From Spirochaetota bacterium (GTDB lineage Bacteria > Spirochaetota > UBA4802 > JAFGDQ01): a DNA stretch of 64,000 nucleotides. Numbering within the stretch: position 1 is the first letter of the stretch; each line of letters begins with the position of its first letter. Positions 41,882 through 51,220 of the stretch are shown here, piece after piece. The notes beneath the pieces are model-generated. The model was not told the DNA's origin. It did no database searches and saw only the letters and a list, made by a program, of their open reading frames with translations. Location of the stretch: NCBI GenBank assembly GCA_016932015.1, contig JAFGDQ010000066.1, positions 23,617-87,616 on the forward strand. Direction: 5' to 3'. The position numbers and the translations under genes are program-made.

Positions 41882-43123
41882 TTAATCTATACCTACACAG
41901 TTAACAAAATATGAGCCGTAAGAATTTTGTGAATATGAATAACTTGCGCCTCCATCACCCCATTTCCAAAAATTAGTATAATCAACAGTTGTCTGCCAGT
42001 AGGTTGACGTTGATCTTGGCGTAAAGAATCCCATAAAGTAGTAAATTGATGAATCAGGTGGGAGGGGTACTGCTGTATATGTAGTATCAGTATTATTATA
42101 GTAAAATCTATTCCATGTGTAGCTTGATGAATTTTTAATCCATAGTGCAAAATGGTCTGATTCTAAATGAGGATCTTCTGTATGCGTCATTTCAGTTGCA
42201 GGAATATATGTATCACCCCAGGTTAAAGTTTCTCCCATTCCTGTATTATACGAACTCGCACTCCATGTAATTGATCCCGGTTTAGAAGCGTAAGTAACTT
42301 TGTGTACAGAATCAGGTTGATTCTGAGAGCTTGTGCTTGAGCTGATATGAGTTGATATTATACCTGCTGTCCCATTGACGACCCTGAACGTGTAAATAGT
42401 CGATGCGCTGTCAGCCCATCCTTCCTGCCCGTAATCATCCTTGTAGCTTTCAATTCCAGAATAGTCTACAGCAGATATTGTATAATAATAATGAATATCC
42501 GCTGTTACTGAAAGATCGTCATATGAATCGTCCACTGAAGAACCGACATAAGTAAAAGGTCCCCAAGCTGATTCTCCTCTATATATTTTAATATATGCTG
42601 CATCTCCATAATGGTTCCAGGATATATTTACATAATCTGGATACGTCCCTTGACTAGGCCAATTCAATCCTGGTGTATCAATGGTTGATCCCGAATTTGA
42701 TGACCATCCTTCATCTGCTGTACTTTTTGAACTAGTGGAATTGGCAATAGTAGAACTTGTTGCTGTTACTGCATACCAGTAATGAGTGTCCTGAGTCGCA
42801 GATGTGTCAGTCCAAGAAGTTATTGTTGCTGGATCAGCCGAGCCAACTTCCTCATTGATATCATCTGGTGAGGTACCGCGAAATATGGCATACCAATCAG
42901 CATTACTGACGGAATTCCAGCTAATGATAACATAGTTAGCATAGATACCGTCAGTTGCAGTGACTCCTGTCGGTACTGAAAGTCGGCTGTCATCGCTACT
43001 ACTACCACCGCCACAATAAAGAAAACCAGACATAAATAAACACGATAAAACCAAACATAATTTTTTCATAAAATGTCTCCAGATAAAATAGTATAAAGGT
43101 TTTAAAGGCGAAAGGGGCTTCAC
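41882..43123 (-). CDS. cell-surface lipoprotein with fibronectin-III-like repeat modules
   Basis: Signal plus Cys (FMSGFLYCGGGSS). Two modules with (Y.NYV.ISWN....A.Y.I.RG.S) signature. Ser/Thr-rich linkers. Trp-rich C-terminus. Confidence 0.6.
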   Translation of the reverse strand: MKPLSPLKPLYYFIWRHFMKKLCLVLSCLFMSGFLYCGGGSSSDDSRLSVPTGVTATDGIYANYVIISWNSVSNADWYAIFRGTSPDDINEEVGSADPATITSWTDTSATQDTHYWYAVTATSSTIANSTSSKSTADEGWSSNSGSTIDTPGLNWPSQGTYPDYVNISWNHYGDAAYIKIYRGESAWGPFTYVGSSVDDSYDDLSVTADIHYYYTISAVDYSGIESYKDDYGQEGWADSASTIYTFRVVNGTAGIISTHISSSTSSQNQPDSVHKVTYASKPGSITWSASSYNTGMGETLTWGDTYIPATEMTHTEDPHLESDHFALWIKNSSSYTWNRFYYNNTDTTYTAVPLPPDSSIYYFMGFFTPRSTSTYWQTTVDYTNFWKWGDGGASYSYSQNSYGSYFVNCVGID

Positions 43124-43290: not shown

Positions 43291-44526
43291 TTAATACAAA
43301 TACAGCGGATGCGAATCCGGATTCTTCCCGAAGAAAGTAACATCGTCAATCTTCTGTATTTTCTCGCCTTTCAGAAGAGTGTACAGGGTACGCTCAATGC
43401 CTATGCCTCCGCCGAAAGTGTCAGGGAAAAGCGGGTTCCCGTTTTCGTGCTTCATGGCTACGAACTGAAGGAAGGGGCCGTAGCCGCCGAGTTCGTCAAT
43501 ATTTTCGATGTTTCCGTTCTTCAGAACAGGCCTTGAAGGAAGTATCTTGTTGTCTATGATTCTTTCGACAATCGGCTCATACAGCCATTCGCGAATGGCG
43601 CCTGAAAGGATTTCTCTTGCCTGAGAGTGTTTGCCTGTTTTCAGGTCAATGCTTTTTGCGAGTATATCATAGTTAAAAACATTGGTGGAGTTTACGTTTG
43701 AGAAATCAATCCTGGTTCCGTCCGGATAAAGATAAGGATAAATGAGGTCATAGTTTTCACGAAGCAGTCCCGTAATCCAGAAAAACTGCGCGTCAGTTGC
43801 TTCGCCTGCTTTCTCCTCAAAGTTTTTTGCACCGTATTTTTTAACGCAGTCGTCCTTGTGAAAACTCGGGAACGGAGTTTCGGGAACGCTCAAAACAATG
43901 CTGAGGTCTTTCAGGTTTTGCGAATTATTTTTGTTAATCTCTTCGCAGGCGAATACTATCATTCTTTCAAAAAAATCTTTTGCTTTGACCATGTCTTCGT
44001 TCAAAGCATCAAGTACCATCTGTTCCTTATTAAAGTAATCATCGAGAGTTATTTTTCTATCGCGTTTTATCTCAATGTCCATCTGTGAAAAATCTGCAAG
44101 GTATTTACCGCGCTGTGCTCCTGTTGGGCTTTCTATTTCAAGACGAATGTTGGGGGAGTCCACAAAGATACCTTTGATGCGCGGATTGGAGCATGCGAGA
44201 AATTTGCTGTAAATCATGCTGTGCGTGGTAAGATATGTATGGCCCTTGTATTCTATTGCAGGTGTATGTTCAATATCATGCGCGAGCGGATCTGTTATAA
44301 TGCTTAACATGATTTTTTCAAGGTTGAAAAGTCCTTCCTTTACAAGAAACTGGTTCATTGCGTTTACAAAGCTGGTGCGTATTGCAATGACATTATAAAG
44401 TTCGTCGGATATCCATTTGCCGGAGTAATTCGCTTTTATGTAATCCTCCATGGTTTCGCCGCCTTCATTAATTGCTGACTGGAACCTGAAAAGACTTTCG
44501 CCTATAACCTTGATTTTATCTTCCAT
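43291..44526 (-). CDS. asnA: AsnA-like aspartate-ammonia ligase (class II aaRS catalytic-core paralogue)
   Basis: 411 aa. Class II aaRS-like core with motif-3-like GGGIGIERTLYTLL. No anticodon-binding domain. Longer than E. coli AsnA, so the call is tentative. Confidence 0.6.
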   Translation of the reverse strand: MEDKIKVIGESLFRFQSAINEGGETMEDYIKANYSGKWISDELYNVIAIRTSFVNAMNQFLVKEGLFNLEKIMLSIITDPLAHDIEHTPAIEYKGHTYLTTHSMIYSKFLACSNPRIKGIFVDSPNIRLEIESPTGAQRGKYLADFSQMDIEIKRDRKITLDDYFNKEQMVLDALNEDMVKAKDFFERMIVFACEEINKNNSQNLKDLSIVLSVPETPFPSFHKDDCVKKYGAKNFEEKAGEATDAQFFWITGLLRENYDLIYPYLYPDGTRIDFSNVNSTNVFNYDILAKSIDLKTGKHSQAREILSGAIREWLYEPIVERIIDNKILPSRPVLKNGNIENIDELGGYGPFLQFVAMKHENGNPLFPDTFGGGIGIERTLYTLLKGEKIQKIDDVTFFGKNPDSHPLYLY

Positions 44527-44731: not shown

Positions 44732-47620
44732 ATGAGCTTAATAAGTGAAAAAAACGCGAAAGAGATAGTTACTCTTGTAAATGAAAAATCACTGTCATGT
44801 GAGGAACTGCTGAATGACTGTTTCAGCCAGATTGAGAAATATGATCCTGTGCTTGAAAGCTTTATTTCTTTATATGATAAAGAGACACTTGTAAAAGAGG
44901 CAAGGGAGAGCGACAGCAGGCGGTCAAAAAACGCACAATTGAGCGCTATTGACGGGATTCCTCTTGCTGTTAAAGATAATATCCATTCACAAGGCATACC
45001 TACAACATGCGCTTCCAGAATACTTGAAAATTATAATCCTCCTTATGATGCTACTGCCGTAAGTCTCATTAAAAACAGCGGCGGTATTATACTCGGTAAG
45101 ACCAATATGGATGAATTTGCCATGGGGTCAACATGCGAGCATTCAAGCATGTGCCATACACGGAATCCGTGGGACATTCACCGTGTACCGGGCGGCTCAT
45201 CTGGCGGGTCTGCGGTTGCTGTTTCGGCTGGCATGACTCCGTTTGCTCTCGGAAGCGATACAGGCGGGTCTATTCGTCAGCCTGCGGCTTTCTGCGGAGT
45301 AACAGGTTTAAAACCGACATACGGGCTTGTCTCACGCTACGGGCTTGTAGCATATGCTTCATCGCTTGACCAGATAGGACCAATGTCACGTGACGTTTAC
45401 GGAAACGCGCTGCTGCTGAATATAATAAGCGGTTATGATGTGAATGACTCCACATCGCTTAACCATGAAAAGACAGATTATACTGCAAAACTCGGACAGG
45501 ACATAAAAGGAAAGCGCATAGCTGTTTTCAGGGAGCTTTTAAAAGAGGGAATTTCTCCACAGGTAATGAGAGAATTTGAGAAATCTCTTAAAGTATTAAA
45601 AGAGCAGGGCGCATTAATAGAGGAAGTTTCTTTTGAAGCAGTCAGGTATGTGATCGCAGCGTATTATTTTATTGCATGCGCGGAAGCATGCTCAAATCTT
45701 TCCAGATACGACGGCGTGAAATACGGATTCAGAAGCGGAAAACAGACAGATTATCAGGAAATGCTTTTCACAACGCGTTCCTACGGATTCGGCAAGGAAG
45801 TAAAGAAAAGAATTCTTCTTGGAAACTTTGTCCTTTCCTCAGGTTATTATGATGAGTATTACAGAAAAGCGCAGAAAGTCAGAACACTGATAAGAGATGA
45901 ACTTAAAAAGATTTTTGAAACTGCTGATGTAATTGCCATGCCGACAACTCCTGATATTGCTTTTAAGCATGGAGAGAGCAGCCTTGATCCTATGAGGATG
46001 TATCTTTCTGATATTACAACTGTTATACCGAATCTTTCCGGCCTGCCTGCCATCAGCATTCCGTGCGGCATGGCTGACGGTATGCCTGTAGGGCTTCAGT
46101 TCATAGGCAAACCGCTCGATGAGCAGATGCTGCTGCAGGCGGCATCAATTTACGAAAGCAGCAGAAAAGAAAAATATATTCCTGAGCTTGATCATATTCT
46201 GGATGAGAATGTACCGGGTAAACCGCATTCGGATTCACAGAAGAAAGATGTTTCAGTAAAAGCCTCTGTTTACACTATGAAGGATGTTAAGAAGATTTCC
46301 GAAACCTACTCGGAAAGAACATCTAAAAAGAGCAGAGTATACTGCAGGGACCTTGATTCAAAAGAAGGAAAGAAAGTAACTCTGGGCGGCTGGATTCACA
46401 GCAAAAGAAATCTCGGCGGAATTGATTTTTATATACTCAGGGATAAAACAGGATTTACACAGCTTGTACTTGAAGGCGAAAAGCCGATAGAAAAGCTGAA
46501 CCTTGAAACTGTAGTTGAGGTTTACGGCCGCGTTACAAAAGAAAAACGCAGCCCGTATAGAAATATAGAAATTAAAGTTGAAAAGCTGGATATACTCGGC
46601 CATGCGGAAAGCAGTCTGCCGTTAAATATCAACAGCAGTCTTGAAAATATTAATTTACCGACAATACTCGACAACAGAACCGTATCGGTAAGAAATCCTG
46701 AAATACAGTCAGTTTTCAGGCTGCAGTCAAAAATAGTTAAGCATTTTTCGGATTATCTGAGAGACAATGATTTTACCGAGATAAAGACTCCGAAGATAGT
46801 TTCAAGCGGTGCAGAGGGCGGCACTAATATTTTCGAGCTTAAGTACTTTGACCGCTCAGCTTATCTTGCGCAGTCCCCGCAGTTTTACAAGCAGATCATG
46901 GTGGGCAGCGGCATGGAAAGAGTATTTGAGGTCGGGCCTGTGTTCAGGGCTGAACATCATGATACTGTGCGTCATTTAAATGAATACACCAGCATGGATT
47001 TTGAAATGGGATTCATTGAGAATGAGCAGGATGTCATAGACATGCAGGAAGCTCTGATAAAATATATTTTTAAAAATCTAAAGAATGATTTTAAAGGGGA
47101 CGCAGGGTATAAGAACATGTCATTTGATGTTCCCAAAAAATTCCCGCGCATACATTTTCTTGAAGCTATGGAGATTCTGTCATCGCTCGGCGTAAGGGAT
47201 ATGGAGGAAGGAGATATTTCCCCGGCAGGTGAAAAAGCGTTATGTGACTATTTCGAGGAGAAGGAAAATTCTTCCTTTGTTTATGTCGTAGGCTACCCTG
47301 TAAAGAAAAGGCCTATGTATACAATGCCTGATGAAAGGCTGCCCGGTTATACCAGAAGCTTTGACCTTTTATATAAGGGAATTGAAATAACAACAGGCGG
47401 GCAGCGCATTCACGATTATCATCAGCTCAGGGATAACATTGTGGATTTCGGTTTTAATCCGAGAGAGTTTAAAGATTATCTTGATATATTTAAGTACGGA
47501 ATGACCCCGCACGGCGGTCTTGGAATGGGGCTTGAAAGGCTTACAATGAAAATAATGAATCTTAAAAACATCAGGGAAGCAGCACTGTTCCCTAGAGATA
47601 TAAACAGGCTTACGCCTTAA
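44732..47620 (+). CDS. gatA-aspS: fusion protein: Glu/Asp-tRNA amidotransferase subunit A (GatA) + archaeal-type aspartyl-tRNA synthetase
   Basis: Residues ~1-485 carry the amidase signature GGSSGGSAVAVSAG...GSDTGGSIRQPAAFCGVTGLKPTYG. After a ~45-aa linker come an OB-fold (VTLGGWIHSKRNLGGIDFYILRD) and class II motifs FRAEHHDTVRHLNEY and GGLGMGLERLTMKIM...FPRDINRLTP. Single uninterrupted 962-codon ORF. Confidence 0.85.
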   Translation: MSLISEKNAKEIVTLVNEKSLSCEELLNDCFSQIEKYDPVLESFISLYDKETLVKEARESDSRRSKNAQLSAIDGIPLAVKDNIHSQGIPTTCASRILENYNPPYDATAVSLIKNSGGIILGKTNMDEFAMGSTCEHSSMCHTRNPWDIHRVPGGSSGGSAVAVSAGMTPFALGSDTGGSIRQPAAFCGVTGLKPTYGLVSRYGLVAYASSLDQIGPMSRDVYGNALLLNIISGYDVNDSTSLNHEKTDYTAKLGQDIKGKRIAVFRELLKEGISPQVMREFEKSLKVLKEQGALIEEVSFEAVRYVIAAYYFIACAEACSNLSRYDGVKYGFRSGKQTDYQEMLFTTRSYGFGKEVKKRILLGNFVLSSGYYDEYYRKAQKVRTLIRDELKKIFETADVIAMPTTPDIAFKHGESSLDPMRMYLSDITTVIPNLSGLPAISIPCGMADGMPVGLQFIGKPLDEQMLLQAASIYESSRKEKYIPELDHILDENVPGKPHSDSQKKDVSVKASVYTMKDVKKISETYSERTSKKSRVYCRDLDSKEGKKVTLGGWIHSKRNLGGIDFYILRDKTGFTQLVLEGEKPIEKLNLETVVEVYGRVTKEKRSPYRNIEIKVEKLDILGHAESSLPLNINSSLENINLPTILDNRTVSVRNPEIQSVFRLQSKIVKHFSDYLRDNDFTEIKTPKIVSSGAEGGTNIFELKYFDRSAYLAQSPQFYKQIMVGSGMERVFEVGPVFRAEHHDTVRHLNEYTSMDFEMGFIENEQDVIDMQEALIKYIFKNLKNDFKGDAGYKNMSFDVPKKFPRIHFLEAMEILSSLGVRDMEEGDISPAGEKALCDYFEEKENSSFVYVVGYPVKKRPMYTMPDERLPGYTRSFDLLYKGIEITTGGQRIHDYHQLRDNIVDFGFNPREFKDYLDIFKYGMTPHGGLGMGLERLTMKIMNLKNIREAALFPRDINRLTP

Positions 47621-47641
47621 CAGTACAATCCGGCGGCATAG

Positions 47642-49414
47642 ATGAAACATAAATCAAAAATAAATATTGAAAATCTGATTGAGCTTGCGTCGTTTGAAGT
47701 AAGTGAAGAGGAAAAGAAACAGTTGGAGAATGAACTGGATGAATTTCTCGCGTATGCTCATGTAATAGACAATGCTCCGTGCGGAGACATGACACCCTCA
47801 AGCCATGCGGTCGAAAAAGAAGCATATATGCGTGAGGATGAAATCAGCGCGTGGGACAAAGTTGAAAAGATAATGGGAAACAGCCCTGTAACGGAAGGGC
47901 AGAGCTATCTTGTTCCTCCCCAGAAAACAACAGCAGTTATGCTGGATGATGAAAACGAGGAAAGCGAAAAGCCGTATGACGGAGAACTGGAGCCTGTAAT
48001 AGGCCTTGAGGTTCATGCGAGGCTGAAAACAAAGAGCAAGCTGTTCTGCAGCTGCTCAACACAATTCGGCGATGAAGCTAACAGCAATGCGTGCCCTGTG
48101 TGTTCAGGCCAGCCCGGCGTTCTTCCTGTATTAAACCGGGAAGCAGTCAACATGGCTATCATTGCAGGGCTTGCTGTCGGATGCACTGTTAATAAGCACT
48201 CCGTATTCGCGCGAAAAAATTATTTTTATCCCGACCTTCCAAAAGGATACCAGATCTCGCAGTTTGAAGAACCTGTATGCTCCGGCGGCGGTGTTGACAT
48301 TGAAATAGACGGAAAAGTAAAAACAGTAAGGCTTAACAGAATTCACATGGAAGAGGACGCGGGTAAGATGGTTCATGTGGGAGCTCCCGGAATATGGGGC
48401 GCAAAAGCAAGTGCTGTCGACTTTAACAGATGCAGCGTTCCTCTTATTGAGATAGTAACGGAACCGGATCTTTCGTCTCCCGAAGAAGCAAGGGAATACG
48501 TTACCATGCTCAGGGCAGTGCTTGTTTCTCTTGGAATCTGTGATGGAAATATGGAAGAGGGCAGCCTTAAATGTGATGCGAACGTTTCCGTAAGGCCTGT
48601 CGGCTCAAAGAAACTCGGCGTTAAAGTGGAAATCAAGAACATGAACTCATTCAAGGCTATTGAAAGAGCTCTTGATTTCGAAATCGTCCGCCTGAAAAAG
48701 ATGAAGCAGAAAGGCATACGCATAAAACAGGAAACCAGGGGATGGGACGAAAGCGGACAGAAAACATACTCAATGAGGGGCAAAGAGGAGTCCCAGGATT
48801 ACAGGTATTTTCCTGATCCTGACCTTCTTCCTGTAGTGCTTACTGATGAATGGATAAACAGCCTTAAAGACCGCGTTACGGAATCTCCTTTGAATGGGAA
48901 GAAGAAGTGCATTGATAATTATTCTTTTTCTGAAAATGAAGCCCGCCTGTTTATGGTTAATCCTTCCTACAGCGAGTATTTTGAAAAGGTGCTGCAGTAT
49001 TATGATAATCCCAGGGCACTTGCCAACTGGTTTTTCAGCGAGATATTGTCCCAGACAGGCGGAGACATGGGAAGTATACATATTACACCTGACGATCTGG
49101 CAGAATTCCTCAAGAGAATAGATAAGGGAGAAATAAGCGGAAAGATTGGCAAGGATGTCCTGAAAAAAGCGTTCACTGAAAAGAAAGGCCTTGTTGAAAT
49201 AATTGAAAACGAGAACCTGAAGCAGGAGACTGATACAGGAGTTATTGAGAAGATAATAGATGAAATTATTGAAAAAAATCCTTCTCAGGTAGCTGAATAT
49301 AAAAGCGGTAAAACTAAACTTCTCGGATTCTTTGTGGGAGAGACAATGAAAGCTTCTCAGGGCAAGGCTAATCCGAAAATTGTTAATGAGATTTTAAGAG
49401 AGAAGCTTAAGTAA
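47642..49414 (+). CDS. gatC-gatB: fusion protein: GatC + GatB amidotransferase subunits
   Basis: N-terminal ~95 aa resemble GatC (NIENLIELASFEVSEEEKKQL...MREDE). An acidic linker follows. GatB starts at EPVIGLEVHARLKTKSKLFCSC...CPVCSGQPGVLPVLN and includes the C-terminal YqeY-like tail. 590 aa against ~480 for GatB alone. Confidence 0.85.
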   Translation: MKHKSKINIENLIELASFEVSEEEKKQLENELDEFLAYAHVIDNAPCGDMTPSSHAVEKEAYMREDEISAWDKVEKIMGNSPVTEGQSYLVPPQKTTAVMLDDENEESEKPYDGELEPVIGLEVHARLKTKSKLFCSCSTQFGDEANSNACPVCSGQPGVLPVLNREAVNMAIIAGLAVGCTVNKHSVFARKNYFYPDLPKGYQISQFEEPVCSGGGVDIEIDGKVKTVRLNRIHMEEDAGKMVHVGAPGIWGAKASAVDFNRCSVPLIEIVTEPDLSSPEEAREYVTMLRAVLVSLGICDGNMEEGSLKCDANVSVRPVGSKKLGVKVEIKNMNSFKAIERALDFEIVRLKKMKQKGIRIKQETRGWDESGQKTYSMRGKEESQDYRYFPDPDLLPVVLTDEWINSLKDRVTESPLNGKKKCIDNYSFSENEARLFMVNPSYSEYFEKVLQYYDNPRALANWFFSEILSQTGGDMGSIHITPDDLAEFLKRIDKGEISGKIGKDVLKKAFTEKKGLVEIIENENLKQETDTGVIEKIIDEIIEKNPSQVAEYKSGKTKLLGFFVGETMKASQGKANPKIVNEILREKLK

Positions 49415-50261: not shown

Positions 50262-50699
50262 TTATATTCTGTTGAGATAATCTTTCAGGTTATTCTTTTT
50301 GATCTCAAATAAATATATGTCTCTGTCTTTATTTGATTTTTCTTTCCTGAGTTCGCCGTTCCGCTCTATCAGGTTCAGCAGAGCAGCGTTCATGTTTCTG
50401 TCAATTTTTCCCTTCCTTGACTGAACATGTTTCCGCAGGGAAATCAATGCGCGTTTTTTCGCGTATTTTTCAGATATGGCAGTATCATAACTGCTGTCTT
50501 TTGGCTTAACGATTATTATTCTGAAAAGGTTATCCGTAATGAATCCTTCATCCCTGAATTCAGGAGCCGGCTTGTCCTGTAGTTTGTCTTCTCTAACCTG
50601 CTCGTCTGAGCATGCCATAATCGTAAGAATAAAAATGAGAATAAGTAAACCGGTTTTCCTTGCTGCTGCCAGGCTAAAAGTTTTTTCCAATAACGTCAT
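50262..50699 (-). CDS. small lipoprotein, paralogue of the upstream gene
   Basis: Lipobox LTIMACSD. Shares the motif GF(L/I)(T/D)D...(I/V)I(I/V).K with the 50696-51220 product. Confidence 0.5.
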   Translation of the reverse strand: MTLLEKTFSLAAARKTGLLILIFILTIMACSDEQVREDKLQDKPAPEFRDEGFITDNLFRIIIVKPKDSSYDTAISEKYAKKRALISLRKHVQSRKGKIDRNMNAALLNLIERNGELRKEKSNKDRDIYLFEIKKNNLKDYLNRI

Positions 50700-51220
50700 T
50701 TGCCTGTCTCTTTGTTTTTTTCATCTTCCCTGACTTTAATATCCGGTTCAATGGATTCAATTTTTTTTACAAGATTATCCCTGAAAATCCGATATACGAT
50801 TATTGCCGAATTATCGGGATTATAATATTCGAAAGCTGTATAACCCGAATTGTAAAACGGCAGCATTTTGTTTTGAAGTTCCTGCTTAACTGACTGTATA
50901 TTCTGAATGACCTTTTCGTCTTTAATATTTAATTTAGCTATATGGTATTGATAATTATAATCAGTAAGACTTTTCAGTACTTTATCTTTAAGCCGGCTTT
51001 TCGCGTCGATTAATGCGCTTTCCCTTGATGCAACCAGGCCCTTTGCTTCATTAACTGGCTTCCCTTTTACAATTACCTGATAATGGTCAGTATCAAGAAA
51101 GCCTTCTGTCGTATAATCATTTAACAGCCTGCTTGTATTATAATATTTGACTGTGCAGCTGAGGGTTGAAAATATAATTACAAATACAGCTGCAGTCAGA
51201 ATACACAGCAATGATCTCAT
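50696..51220 (-). CDS. small lipoprotein, paralogue of the downstream gene
   Basis: Signal plus Cys (IFSTLSCT). 4-bp overlap with the next gene. Confidence 0.5.
   Translation of the reverse strand: MRSLLCILTAAVFVIIFSTLSCTVKYYNTSRLLNDYTTEGFLDTDHYQVIVKGKPVNEAKGLVASRESALIDAKSRLKDKVLKSLTDYNYQYHIAKLNIKDEKVIQNIQSVKQELQNKMLPFYNSGYTAFEYYNPDNSAIIVYRIFRDNLVKKIESIEPDIKVREDEKNKETGK

What the first reader, a model, noticed from the sequence alone, without database searches (positions are those of the whole stretch)
47642..49414. GatC fused to GatB, and inverted subunit order (A before C-B)
The ORF is 590 aa, about 110 aa longer than a normal GatB. Its first ~95 residues align with GatC (IENLIELASFEVSEEEKKQL...AHVID...MREDE). 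An acidic linker (DDENEESEKPYDGELE) follows and runs straight into the GatB start (PVIGLEVHARLKTKSKLFCSC...CPVCSGQPGVLPVLN). GatC normally wraps around the GatA/GatB interface as a separate small peptide. Here it is covalently attached to GatB. The gene order is gatA(-aspS) then gatC-gatB, not the usual gatC-gatA-gatB. Together with the upstream fusion, the four-component machine is encoded as two polypeptides.
Basis: partly seen in the sequence, partly recalled or inferred. Interest (0 to 1): 0.65.

Follow-up and report, generated by a model that had tools for sequence, protein, structure and literature searches.

The report
Natural GatC–GatB fusion, hard-wired transamidosome
In one group of uncultured spirochaetes (and two Uabimicrobium species), the small GatC subunit of the enzyme that makes Asn-tRNA and Gln-tRNA is permanently joined to GatB, and GatA is usually joined to the aspartyl-tRNA synthetase, so a normally four-protein machine is encoded as two chains; the fusion is real and conserved, I found no paper describing it, and it is a variant of a well-known enzyme.

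Summary
ORF 47642..49414(+) encodes 590 aa: a full-length GatC module (aa ~6-94), a 22-residue hydrophilic linker (95-116), and a complete GatB (117-590). The GatC assignment is supported by Pfam and NCBIfam profiles, by a family profile that hits only GatC chains in the PDB, and by an AlphaFold model that matches GatC chains. It is not a sequencing artefact. About 100 protein clusters and 37 species-representative genomes carry the same continuous ORF: 35 Spirochaetota MAGs plus two closed Candidatus Uabimicrobium chromosomes. The apparent unfused relatives that I checked were miscalled starts or a scaffold gap. On a tree of the GatB part, fused proteins split cleanly from the nearest unfused GatBs, which points to a single origin. 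The upstream ORF is GatA fused to an archaeal-type non-discriminating AspRS. This pair sits directly upstream in 27 of the 37 genomes, but the GatC-GatB fusion also occurs without it. The most likely function is a covalently stabilised GatCAB, usually a two-polypeptide Asn-transamidosome with fixed stoichiometry. Other covalent links in this system are on record (an NCBIfam AspRS-GatC family, an engineered GatC-GluRS chain, a mutant GatC-GatA), and I found no paper on this one. Verdict: a new variant of a known kind, of moderate interest.

The parts
47642..47923 (+). GatC module (aa 1-94) of the fused protein. It has predicted N-terminal helices 9-16 and 22-43, the R-E-D-E motif at 63-67, and the C-terminal strand S-Y-L-V-P-P at 88-93.
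   Evidence: Pfam PF02686 matches 20-91 (33.7 bits). TIGR00135 scores 47.4 bits. The family profile A2 hits only GatC chains in the PDB: 3h0l_C at 1.5e-8, plus 2df4_C, 4wj3_C and 3al0_C. Foldseek matches GatC chains with probability 0.82-1.0.
47924..47989 (+). Flexible hydrophilic tether (aa 95-116: KTTAVMLDDENEESEKPYDGEL) joining the C-terminus of GatC to the N-terminus of GatB.
   Evidence: pLDDT is below 50 for residues 97-105, and the 10-residue blocks 91-110 average 52-53. The sequence is variable, but the length from PP to VIGLEVH is 22-27 aa in 91 of 92 family members. The composition is rich in E, G, A, K, T and S.
47990..48859 (+). GatB catalytic cradle domain (aa 117-406), including a four-Cys cluster (C136, C138, C151, C154).
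   Evidence: Pfam GatB_N matches 119-406 at 1.1e-118. Invariant columns across 99 sequences are listed.
48860..49414 (+). GatB helical and YqeY-like tail domains (aa 407-590), followed by the stop codon.
   Evidence: Pfam GatB_Yqey matches 445-589 at 4.8e-46. The AF2 model is helical here with high pLDDT.
47621..47641 (+). 21-nt intergenic spacer between gatA-aspS and gatC-gatB. The two ORFs share a reading frame but are separated by TAA and a second in-frame TAG.
   Evidence: Sequence read directly.
44732..46189 (+). GatA glutaminase domain (aa 1-486) of the upstream fusion protein.
   Evidence: TIGR00132 scores 606 bits. 2df4_A matches at 2.5e-157. AF2 is confident over residues 1-490.
46190..46333 (+). 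Tether of about 48 aa between GatA and AspRS (aa 487-534).
   Evidence: pLDDT is below 50 for 496-513, followed by a short helix at 516-525. This region is variable in alignment A5.
46334..47620 (+). Archaeal-type non-discriminating AspRS domain (aa 535-962: OB anticodon-binding domain plus class II core), followed by the stop codon.
   Evidence: NF003483 aspartate--tRNA(Asn) ligase scores 559 bits and TIGR00458 aspS_nondisc scores 443 bits. 1n9w_A (T. thermophilus AspRS2) matches at 1e-102. The domain has His at the position of T. kodakarensis W26 and Pro at the position of K85.
43291..44526 (-). Divergently transcribed class II synthetase-core paralogue (411 aa), related to archaeal asparagine synthetase A. 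It is a possible functional neighbour and is not part of the fusion.
   Evidence: NF005054 scores 129 bits, below its cut-off of 309. PDB hits are 1nnh_A at 4.5e-13 and 3p8t_A. It belongs to a conserved 411-aa family in the same Spirochaetota. The neighbourhood is kept in L018.

Best explanation
This is a genuine, single-origin gene fusion that produces a GatC-GatB ('GatCB') subunit of the tRNA-dependent amidotransferase.

Shown:
- The N-terminal ~94 residues are a complete GatC.
- Residues 117-590 are a complete GatB, and the positions conserved in the solved GatBs it aligns to are retained.
- The two are joined by a low-confidence (presumably disordered), length-conserved tether of 22-27 residues.
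- The architecture is conserved in one clade of Spirochaetota and in Ca. Uabimicrobium.

Inferred:
- The tethered GatC does its normal job in cis. Its N-terminal helices clamp GatA, and its C-terminal strand (SYLVPP) pairs with the GatB cradle domain. The tether only has to bring the chain back to the N-terminus of GatB.
- Because GatC's C-terminal end already sits on GatB in solved GatCAB structures, fusing it there should disturb the enzyme little. This contrasts with the mutant GatC-GatA fusion.
- The gain is fixed 1:1 GatC:GatB stoichiometry and a more stable holoenzyme.
- In this window and most relatives, the partner is GatA fused through a ~50-residue tether to an archaeal-type non-discriminating AspRS. 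AspRS dimerisation would then give a (GatA-AspRS)2(GatC-GatB)2 particle. That particle would be a covalently hard-wired Asn-transamidosome: it charges tRNAAsn with Asp and amidates it to Asn-tRNAAsn without releasing the mischarged intermediate.
- The downstream position of gatC-gatB, with GatC emerging first from the ribosome, would favour assembly onto GatA made from the same mRNA.
For: - Domain identities.
- AF2 model: mean pLDDT 85. The GatC helices score 71-86, residues 61-70 score 90, a strand is predicted at 88-91, and the linker is below 50-53.
- Conservation of one continuous ORF: about 100 clusters at 48-86% identity, and 37 species genomes including closed chromosomes AP019860.1 and CP165719.1.
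- The unfused-looking relatives that were checked are artefacts: a miscalled start in L002 and a run of N in L001.
- Single origin: one cluster at 50% identity, and a clean split of 82 fused from 17 unfused proteins on a neighbour-joining tree of the GatB part only.
- Tether length is constrained to 22-27 aa in 91 of 92 proteins, and the PP-to-HVG spacing is 148-153 aa.
- The partner GatA-AspRS is conserved (about 70 clusters) and lies directly upstream in 27 of 37 species loci.
- The non-discriminating signature is supported by the NCBIfam equivalogs and the His/Pro residues.
- In solved GatCAB, the C-terminal hairpin of GatC forms a sheet with GatB, and a GatC-GatA fusion raises mistranslation (PMC7541841).
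- GatC is described as a stabilising scaffold, and stabilising GatCAB or the transamidosome improves fidelity (PMC8406222).
Against: - There is no direct evidence of assembly, activity or stoichiometry.
- The GatC module is only 27-52% identical across the family. Its TIGR00135 score passes the cut-off only marginally, and only when the N-terminus is scored alone (47.4 vs 47.1; it scores 43.5 within the full protein).
- The monomer model gives the loop at residues 44-60 low confidence.
- I could not check whether these genomes also carry a separate gatC, a second AspRS, AsnRS or GlnRS. It is therefore open whether the particle serves Asn only or also Gln-tRNAGln.
- The AspRS fusion is absent from some genomes that have GatC-GatB, so the two-polypeptide transamidosome is not the reason the GatC-GatB fusion exists.
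Confidence: 0.8

Rival explanations
1. The long ORF is an artefact: a sequencing or assembly error, or a lost stop codon in one MAG, has joined a separate upstream gatC to gatB.
For: The window comes from a metagenome-assembled genome. Several relatives are annotated as 471-482-aa GatB proteins.
Against: The same continuous ORF occurs in about 100 independent clusters and in 37 species genomes, including two closed chromosomes. The short annotations that were checked are miscalled starts (L002's true ORF is 590 aa; L009 versus the identical L006 locus) or a scaffold gap of N (L001). Linker length is conserved.
Confidence: 0.01
2. The N-terminal extension is a decayed GatC remnant, or an unrelated leader, with no GatC function. 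A separate gatC elsewhere in the genome supplies the real subunit.
For: The module is much less conserved than GatB (27-52% vs 58-76% identity). The whole genomes could not be searched for a second gatC.
Against: Stand-alone GatC is generally poorly conserved as well, to judge from weak scores among the PDB GatCs. The GatC profile is covered end to end. Positions L12, F35, L36, D66, P82, P92 and P93 are invariant across the clade. AF2 gives structured helices and a confident 61-70 segment with a strand at 88-91. Foldseek recovers GatC chains. The module has been retained since a single ancient fusion.
Confidence: 0.08
3. The fusion is a polyprotein-like precursor. The linker is cleaved after translation, which releases normal GatC and GatB in equal amounts.
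For: The linker is exposed and predicted with low confidence, so it would be accessible to proteases.
Against: The linker has no conserved cleavage motif. Its sequence varies while its length is tightly conserved, which fits a tether better than a processing site. To my knowledge no bacterial GatCAB is made this way.
Confidence: 0.05
4. The fused enzyme is real, but it is dedicated to asparagine biosynthesis on tRNAAsn alone, as in Thermus and Deinococcus. It would not be the cell's general Asp/Glu amidotransferase, and decoding of Asn would rely on AsnRS as well.
For: In one sub-group, an AsnRS gene lies directly upstream in the same orientation: asnS, then gatA-aspS, then gatC-gatB. The fused AspRS is the archaeal-type non-discriminating enzyme, like T. 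thermophilus AspRS2.
Against: In the window itself the neighbour is an AsnA-like paralogue, not AsnRS. The presence or absence of GlnRS, AsnRS, AsnA and AsnB in these genomes is unknown. GatB keeps the full YqeY tail found in the solved GatB chains it aligns to.
Confidence: 0.35

Closest known systems
Canonical heterotrimeric GatCAB (S. aureus 2DF4/2F2A/3IP4; A. aeolicus 3H0L)
   Same: All three modules are present. GatA matches 2df4_A at 2.5e-157. GatB matches 3h0l_B at 1.1e-140. GatC aligns end to end with 2df4_C and 3h0l_C. The GatA amidase motifs (GGSSGG, GSDTGGS) can be read directly in the sequence.
   Different: GatC is not a free ~95-aa peptide. It is covalently joined to the N-terminus of GatB through a 22-aa tether. 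The gene order is A then C-B, not C-A-B. GatA carries an AspRS.
Thermus thermophilus Asn-transamidosome (3KFU: archaeal-type ND-AspRS2 + GatCAB + tRNAAsn)
   Same: It has the same four protein components, and the AspRS is of the same type (1n9w_A/3kfu at 1e-102, with His and Pro at the two anticodon-loop positions).
   Different: In Thermus the complex is non-covalent and depends on tRNA (established knowledge). Here GatA-AspRS and GatC-GatB are each a single chain, so the AspRS:GatA and GatC:GatB ratios are each fixed at 1:1.
Engineered GatC-linker-GluRS chain of the Thermotoga maritima Gln-transamidosome crystal (3AL0 chain C)
   Same: An amidotransferase subunit is covalently tethered to another component of the pathway to hold the complex together. 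Chain C is deposited as 'GatC, Linker, GluRS 2'.
   Different: That link is man-made, joins GatC to the synthetase, and serves the glutamine branch. The present fusions are natural and join GatC to GatB and GatA to AspRS.
Spontaneous GatC-GatA fusion in Mycobacterium smegmatis (PMC7541841), and natural GatC-GatA proteins in metagenomes (P0204, P0215, P0226)
   Same: Loss of the gatC stop codon gives a viable fused amidotransferase subunit. Natural proteins of 583-589 aa with GatC followed by an Amidase domain exist.
   Different: There GatC is fused to GatA. According to the authors' modelling, this pulls the GatC C-terminal hairpin away from GatB, and mistranslation rises. Here the C-terminus of GatC is tied to GatB, the subunit it already contacts.
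NCBIfam NF009460 (PRK12820), bifunctional aspartyl-tRNA synthetase / amidotransferase subunit C
   Same: It is a curated family of natural fusions between AspRS and a GatCAB subunit, that is, covalent transamidosome coupling (seen).
   Different: The architecture differs: AspRS followed by GatC in a 723-position profile. That model is not among the 11 families matched by the window's GatC-GatB protein.
GatDE (archaeal two-subunit amidotransferase) and yeast mitochondrial GatFAB (4N0H)
   Same: Both are variants of the same enzyme with a different subunit plan. GatE and the GatB of GatFAB are recovered by profile and fold searches.
   Different: GatDE lacks both GatC and GatA. GatF is a separate, longer replacement for GatC. 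Neither has GatC fused to GatB.

Membership tests
GatC (Pfam PF02686 / TIGR00135) | Profile match above the curated threshold, covering the whole profile | tested here: met
   PF02686 scores 33.7 bits against a cut-off of 23, covering profile positions 1-66 of 66. TIGR00135 scores 47.4 against 47.1 on the N-terminal 118 aa alone, covering 3-89 of 93; within the full protein it scores 43.5, just below the cut-off.
GatC (Pfam PF02686 / TIGR00135) | Specific similarity to GatC chains of solved GatCAB structures, in both sequence and fold | tested here: met
   The family profile A2 hits only four PDB sequences, all GatC, from 1.5e-8 to 1.5e-6. The AF2 model matches 2f2a_C, 2df4_C, 9a62_B and 4wj3_C with probability 0.82-1.0.
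GatC (Pfam PF02686 / TIGR00135) | A free-standing polypeptide of about 95-100 aa encoded by its own gene | tested here: not met
   There is no stop codon between the GatC module and GatB in the window or in 37 species genomes. It is a GatC domain, not a GatC subunit.
GatC (Pfam PF02686 / TIGR00135) | Binds at the GatA/GatB interface and stabilises GatA | not testable with these tools
Testing this needs AF-Multimer, AF3 or biochemistry.
GatB (TIGR00133 / NF004014) | Full-length equivalog match above the cut-off, with both the catalytic domain and the YqeY tail | tested here: met
   NF004014 scores 640.5 against 414, and TIGR00133 scores 554 against 314.8. Pfam finds GatB_N and GatB_Yqey. Foldseek gives 3ip4_B at 1.1e-48.
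GatB (TIGR00133 / NF004014) | Conserved cradle-domain residues retained | tested here: met
   Columns E123, H125, R191, K192, Y194, E237, E238, D239, E270, E274, N314 and S316 are invariant in 99 sequences. The aligned positions are identical in A. aeolicus, T. maritima and S. aureus GatB. Their catalytic roles are taken from established knowledge and were not tested.
Asn-transamidosome (ND-AspRS + GatCAB + tRNAAsn) | A non-discriminating AspRS is present | tested here: met
   The NF003483 and TIGR00458 equivalogs score above their cut-offs. His and Pro occupy the positions of T. kodakarensis W26 and K85, as in T. thermophilus AspRS2. The rule linking these residues to specificity is recalled from the Söll and Kern laboratories' work; it is not a measurement of tRNA specificity.
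Asn-transamidosome (ND-AspRS + GatCAB + tRNAAsn) | Physical complex of synthetase and amidotransferase that channels Asp-tRNAAsn | not testable with these tools
   The covalent GatA-AspRS link makes association obligatory at the sequence level. Channelling and tRNAAsn use were not measured, and no tRNA gene lies in the window.
NCBIfam NF009460 bifunctional AspRS/GatC | Architecture of AspRS followed by a C-terminal GatC, scoring above 1379 bits | tested here: not met
   The model is not among the 11 families listed for the window's GatC-GatB protein. The architecture here is GatC-GatB and GatA-AspRS.

The most novel reading that the evidence does not exclude
This clade has a naturally hard-wired, two-polypeptide Asn-transamidosome, (GatA-ND-AspRS)2(GatC-GatB)2, that has not been described in the literature. 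The fusions enforce obligate channelling of Asp-tRNAAsn. The cassette arose once and moved between Spirochaetota and the planctomycete Ca. Uabimicrobium. It would be a natural 'Rosetta stone' proof of the transamidosome, and a ready-made stable particle for structural work and fidelity studies.
Probability: 0.55. Interest if true: 0.6.

Novelty: new variant of a known kind. Interest (0 to 1): 0.5.

Why it matters
GatCAB and the transamidosome are the textbook case of synthesising an amino acid on its tRNA. A long-running question is how cells keep mischarged Asp-tRNAAsn and Glu-tRNAGln away from the ribosome. Known transamidosomes are non-covalent and often transient, and for structural work one had to be held together with an engineered linker (3AL0). 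A lineage in which evolution has tied GatC to GatB and GatA to the non-discriminating AspRS offers three things:

- **Independent genomic evidence.** It shows that these four proteins work as one unit.
- **A natural experiment on fusion topology.** GatC-GatB is conserved here, whereas GatC-GatA causes mistranslation in mycobacteria.
- **A particle with fixed stoichiometry.** It can be used to test channelling and fidelity. One host, Ca. Uabimicrobium amorphum, has a named strain and a closed genome.

It also exposes systematic mis-annotation. These proteins are named plain GatB and GatA, and some gene calls cut off the GatC module.

Tried and rejected
2. **The search for related loci with the GatC-region alignment A2.** This failed because no stretch was conserved enough. 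I replaced it with a hand-built degenerate DNA pattern spanning P-x6-[YF]-x-x-P-P, a 445-460-nt gap, and H-[VI]-G-x2-G-x-W-G. It was validated on the window and on known loci and then run on genome contigs. The pattern is specific to this clade, so it cannot detect independent GatC-GatB fusions elsewhere.
3. **Other N-terminally extended GatBs** in the representative search (P0260, P0375, P0384, P0315, P0257). None has a detectable GatC domain, so I found no second origin of the fusion.
4. **Stop-codon read-through joining both ORFs.** The two ORFs share a frame, but two stops (TAA and TAG) lie between them, and the frame relation is not kept in Uabimicrobium. Rejected.
5. **A clade-specific GatB insertion at the hairpin that binds GatC.** The 7-residue insertion PGIWGAK (relative to S. 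aureus and A. aeolicus) is real, but T. maritima GatB has a 6-residue insertion at the same place. I could not map it onto the hairpin named in PMC7541841, so I make no claim.
6. **Literature searches** for GatC-GatB, GatCB, GatA-AspRS, fused transamidosome, and Uabimicrobium amidotransferase found no description. The library lacks most subscription journals, so absence there is not proof of novelty.
7. **Promoter and terminator scan**. It was uninformative: it reported no terminator-like site on the + strand in or near the 21-nt spacer between the two genes, but the consensus hits are close to chance level.
Full report
**The observation**

Pfam finds three domains in order:
- GatC at residues 20-91. 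This covers the whole 66-position profile and scores 33.7 bits against a gathering cut-off of 23.
- GatB_N at 119-406 (1.1e-118).
- GatB_Yqey at 445-589 (4.8e-46).

NCBIfam's GatB equivalogs match from residue 115-117 to the end; NF004014 scores 640.5 bits against a cut-off of 414. The first 118 residues on their own reach the GatC equivalog TIGR00135 at 47.4 bits, just above the cut-off of 47.1, covering profile positions 3-89 of 93.

The N-terminal peptide aligns end to end with S. aureus GatC (2df4_C, 7.6e-6), including the R-E-D-E motif and the terminal F/Y-x-V-P strand. A profile built from 19 family members (A2) hits exactly four distinct PDB sequences, and all four are GatC: 3h0l_C at 1.5e-8, 2df4_C, 4wj3_C and 3al0_C.

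Residues 94-116 (QKTTAVMLDDENEESEKPYDGEL) link the GatC strand SYLVPP to EPVIGLEVH, the normal start of GatB.

**The upstream gene and the gene order**

ORF 44732..47620 (+), 962 aa, consists of GatA (TIGR00132, 606 bits, aa 15-476) followed by aspartate--tRNA(Asn) ligase (NF003483, 559 bits; TIGR00458 aspS_nondisc, 443 bits; aa 533-962).

The closest solved AspRS relatives are the archaeal type: T. kodakarensis 3nel/1b8a, and T. thermophilus AspRS2 1n9w, which is the synthetase in the 3KFU transamidosome. In those alignments the window protein has His where T. kodakarensis has W26 and Pro where it has K85, the same as T. thermophilus AspRS2. From my memory of published mutagenesis on archaeal-type AspRS, these two positions decide whether tRNAAsn is accepted. 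This is a lead that agrees with the equivalog call; it is not a measurement.

The two genes are 21 nt apart. They share a reading frame, but TAA and a second in-frame TAG lie between them, so read-through is not an issue. The order is therefore gatA-aspS then gatC-gatB.

**It is not an artefact**

- The protein is 100% identical to an NCBI MAG protein named only 'GatB' (Spirochaetes bacterium). About 100 clusters at 90% identity, 585-600 aa long, cover 99-100% of the query at 48-86% identity.
- The few apparently unfused relatives (471-482 aa) that I checked are errors. In L002 the true ORF is 590 aa with the GatC module. In L001 a run of N replaces the region. L009 carries a 482-aa gene call on DNA where the sibling locus L006 is called at 589 aa.
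- A degenerate DNA pattern that spans the GatC strand and a GatB motif was validated on the window and on known loci. It found 37 species-representative genomes: 35 Spirochaetota MAGs, plus the chromosomes of Candidatus Uabimicrobium amorphum (record titled 'complete genome') and Ca. Uabimicrobium sp. HlEnr_7 (gene context).

**Origin and distribution**

- In the library clustered at 50% identity, the whole fused group collapses into one cluster (P0041). The next hits are ordinary GatBs that match only query residues ~115-590.
- A neighbour-joining tree built from the GatB part alone separates 82 fused proteins from the 17 nearest unfused GatBs by a single branch. The Uabimicrobium proteins have spirochaete fused proteins as their nearest non-Uabimicrobium neighbours.
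- This pattern fits a single fusion event followed by transfer between phyla.
- A tblastn survey of the 37 species loci shows gatA-aspS directly upstream in 27. In about 8 loci gatC-gatB has no gatA or aspS in the upstream DNA available (as little as 0.8 kb in the shortest). In Ca. U. sp. HlEnr_7 a plain 489-aa gatA lies 6 nt upstream of gatC-gatB.
- The GatC-GatB fusion is therefore the more general trait, and it does not depend on the GatA-AspRS fusion.
- The GatA-AspRS fusion is itself well conserved: about 70 clusters of 941-983 aa.

**Anatomy and structure**

With a 99-sequence alignment, AlphaFold2 gives the fused protein a mean pLDDT of 85 and a pTM of 0.78:
- The GatC part has helices at 9-16 and 22-43 (pLDDT 71-86).
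- The loop at 44-60 is less certain.
- The segment at 61-70 is confident (pLDDT 90).
- A strand is predicted at 88-91.
- The linker is poorly predicted: residues 97-105 are below 50, and the blocks 91-110 average 52-53.
- GatB is confident from residue 116 onward.

Foldseek matches the model to GatB chains (3ip4_B at 1.1e-48). Separately, its N-terminus matches GatC chains 2f2a_C, 2df4_C, human 9a62_B and 4wj3_C with probability 0.82-1.0.

Across 92 family members, the segment between P-P and V-I-G-L-E-V-H is 22-27 residues long in 91. It is variable in sequence, rich in E, G, A, K, T and S, and carries a mean net charge of about -2. This is the profile of a flexible tether whose length matters.

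The GatB positions that are invariant in the family are identical in the aligned A. aeolicus, T. maritima and S. aureus enzymes. The GatA part keeps the amidase-signature motifs. Nothing suggests a dead enzyme.

The GatA-AspRS model has a confident GatA (residues 1-490), a poorly predicted stretch at 496-513, a short helix at 516-525, and then the OB domain. It gives no confident orientation between the domains (pTM 0.56).

**How it most likely works**

Published structures and modelling state that the C-terminal hairpin of GatC forms a sheet with GatB, and that GatC is a scaffold stabilising the complex (PMC7541841; PMC8406222). Tying the C-terminus of GatC to the N-terminus of GatB by a ~22-residue flexible tether should therefore leave the normal GatC path intact.

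The mutant GatC-GatA fusion in M. smegmatis behaves differently. It raises mistranslation, and its authors modelled it as disturbing the GatB hairpin.

I infer that the fused module acts as GatC in cis, fixes the GatC:GatB ratio, and stabilises the holoenzyme. With GatA-AspRS as partner and AspRS dimerisation (class II AspRS is a dimer; PMC8406222), the expected particle is (GatA-AspRS)2(GatC-GatB)2. This would be a covalently wired Asn-transamidosome. Stabilising the non-covalent mycobacterial transamidosome improves fidelity (PMC8406222), which gives a plausible selective advantage.

None of the assembly, channelling or specificity steps is shown here.

**What is already known**

Covalent links in this system already exist:
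- NCBIfam has a curated family of bifunctional AspRS/GatC proteins, NF009460.
- The T. maritima Gln-transamidosome crystal used an engineered GatC-linker-GluRS chain, 3al0_C.
- Metagenomic proteins include GatB-AspRS of both the archaeal and the bacterial type (P0273, P0278), GatB-asparaginase (P0272) and GatB-tRNA_bind (P0259).
- Natural GatC-GatA fusions also occur (P0204, P0215, P0226).

The general theme is therefore not new. Seven full-text searches found no paper describing a natural GatC-GatB or GatA-AspRS fusion. The public records name the proteins simply GatB and GatA.

**Verdict**

The thing itself is a new variant of a well-known enzyme complex, not a new kind of system. Interest is moderate (0.5). 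A specialist would find a conserved natural two-chain transamidosome useful and somewhat surprising, but it does not overturn anything.

Two main uncertainties remain. One is whether a separate gatC also exists in these genomes. The other is whether the particle serves only Asn-tRNAAsn or also Gln-tRNAGln.

Noticed in passing
window 43291..44526 (-): A 411-aa class II synthetase-core paralogue with no anticodon-binding domain is transcribed divergently from gatA-aspS. It is weakly related to archaeal asparagine synthetase A (1nnh_A at 4.5e-13; NF005054 at 129 bits, below its cut-off). It belongs to a tightly conserved family in the same Spirochaetota, nearly always 411 aa long and 65-82% identical among the listed hits, annotated as 'hypothetical' or 'amino acid--tRNA ligase-related'. 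The neighbourhood is kept in the closest relatives (L018; shared contigs). It may be an Asn-related function linked to the transamidosome genes.
   Followed up: partly
L006/L007/L008/L009/L010 3499..4911 (+); L011 3..1208: In one sub-group of the clade, a bona fide AsnRS (NF003037, 669.6 bits) lies directly upstream in the same orientation, giving asnS, then gatA-aspS, then gatC-gatB. Direct and indirect routes to Asn-tRNAAsn sit side by side. This is reminiscent of Thermus and Deinococcus, where the indirect route serves Asn biosynthesis.
   Followed up: partly
L038 4030..7260 (-) (Ca. Uabimicrobium sp. HlEnr_7, NZ_CP165719.1): The sister species of U. amorphum has a plain 489-aa GatA only 6 nt upstream of the 584-aa GatC-GatB, with no AspRS domain. 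U. amorphum has the 954-aa GatA-AspRS. The AspRS domain was therefore gained or lost cleanly within this genus.
   Followed up: partly
L002 5674..7446; L009 8250..9698; L001 5841..6001: Public gene calls truncate the fused protein to 476-482 aa by choosing an internal start (L002, L009), or because a scaffold gap of N hides the GatC region (L001). All the records name the protein plain 'GatB', so the fusion is invisible in the annotation.
   Followed up: yes
proteins P0273, P0278, P0272, P0259; P0204, P0215, P0226: Other natural fusions of amidotransferase subunits occur in metagenomes: GatB-AspRS (archaeal type, 955 aa), GatB-AspRS (bacterial type with a GAD domain, 1090 aa), GatB-asparaginase (817 aa, reminiscent of GatD+GatE), GatB-tRNA_bind (701 aa), and GatC-GatA (583-589 aa). 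The last group is notable because a non-systematic survey in PMC7541841 found no natural GatC-GatA fusion.
   Followed up: partly
window 48374..48400 (GatB aa 245-253, HVGAPGIWG): GatB of the fused clade carries a 7-residue insertion (PGIWGAK) relative to S. aureus and A. aeolicus GatB, in the loop after the EEDAGK motif. The motif H[VI]G..G.WG is present in nearly all fused proteins and absent from the nearest unfused GatBs, P0102-P0120. T. maritima GatB has a 6-residue insertion at the same place. Its relation to the fusion is unknown.
   Followed up: partly
window 48047..48103 (GatB C136, C138, C151, C154): A four-cysteine cluster (CSC...CPVC) is invariant in the family. A. aeolicus GatB has the same four cysteines and T. 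maritima GatB at least three of them, while S. aureus GatB has none at these positions. It is presumably a zinc site.
   Followed up: no
window 41882..43123 (-), 50262..51220 (-): Three predicted proteins (413, 145 and 174 aa) have no Pfam match; two of them (413 and 145 aa) carry lipoprotein-like N-termini. The surrounding genes are ordinary chromosomal functions: a PAS histidine kinase, a response regulator with an HD domain, a MobA-like transferase, TPR proteins and IMP dehydrogenase. There is no sign of a mobile element around the gat genes.
   Followed up: no
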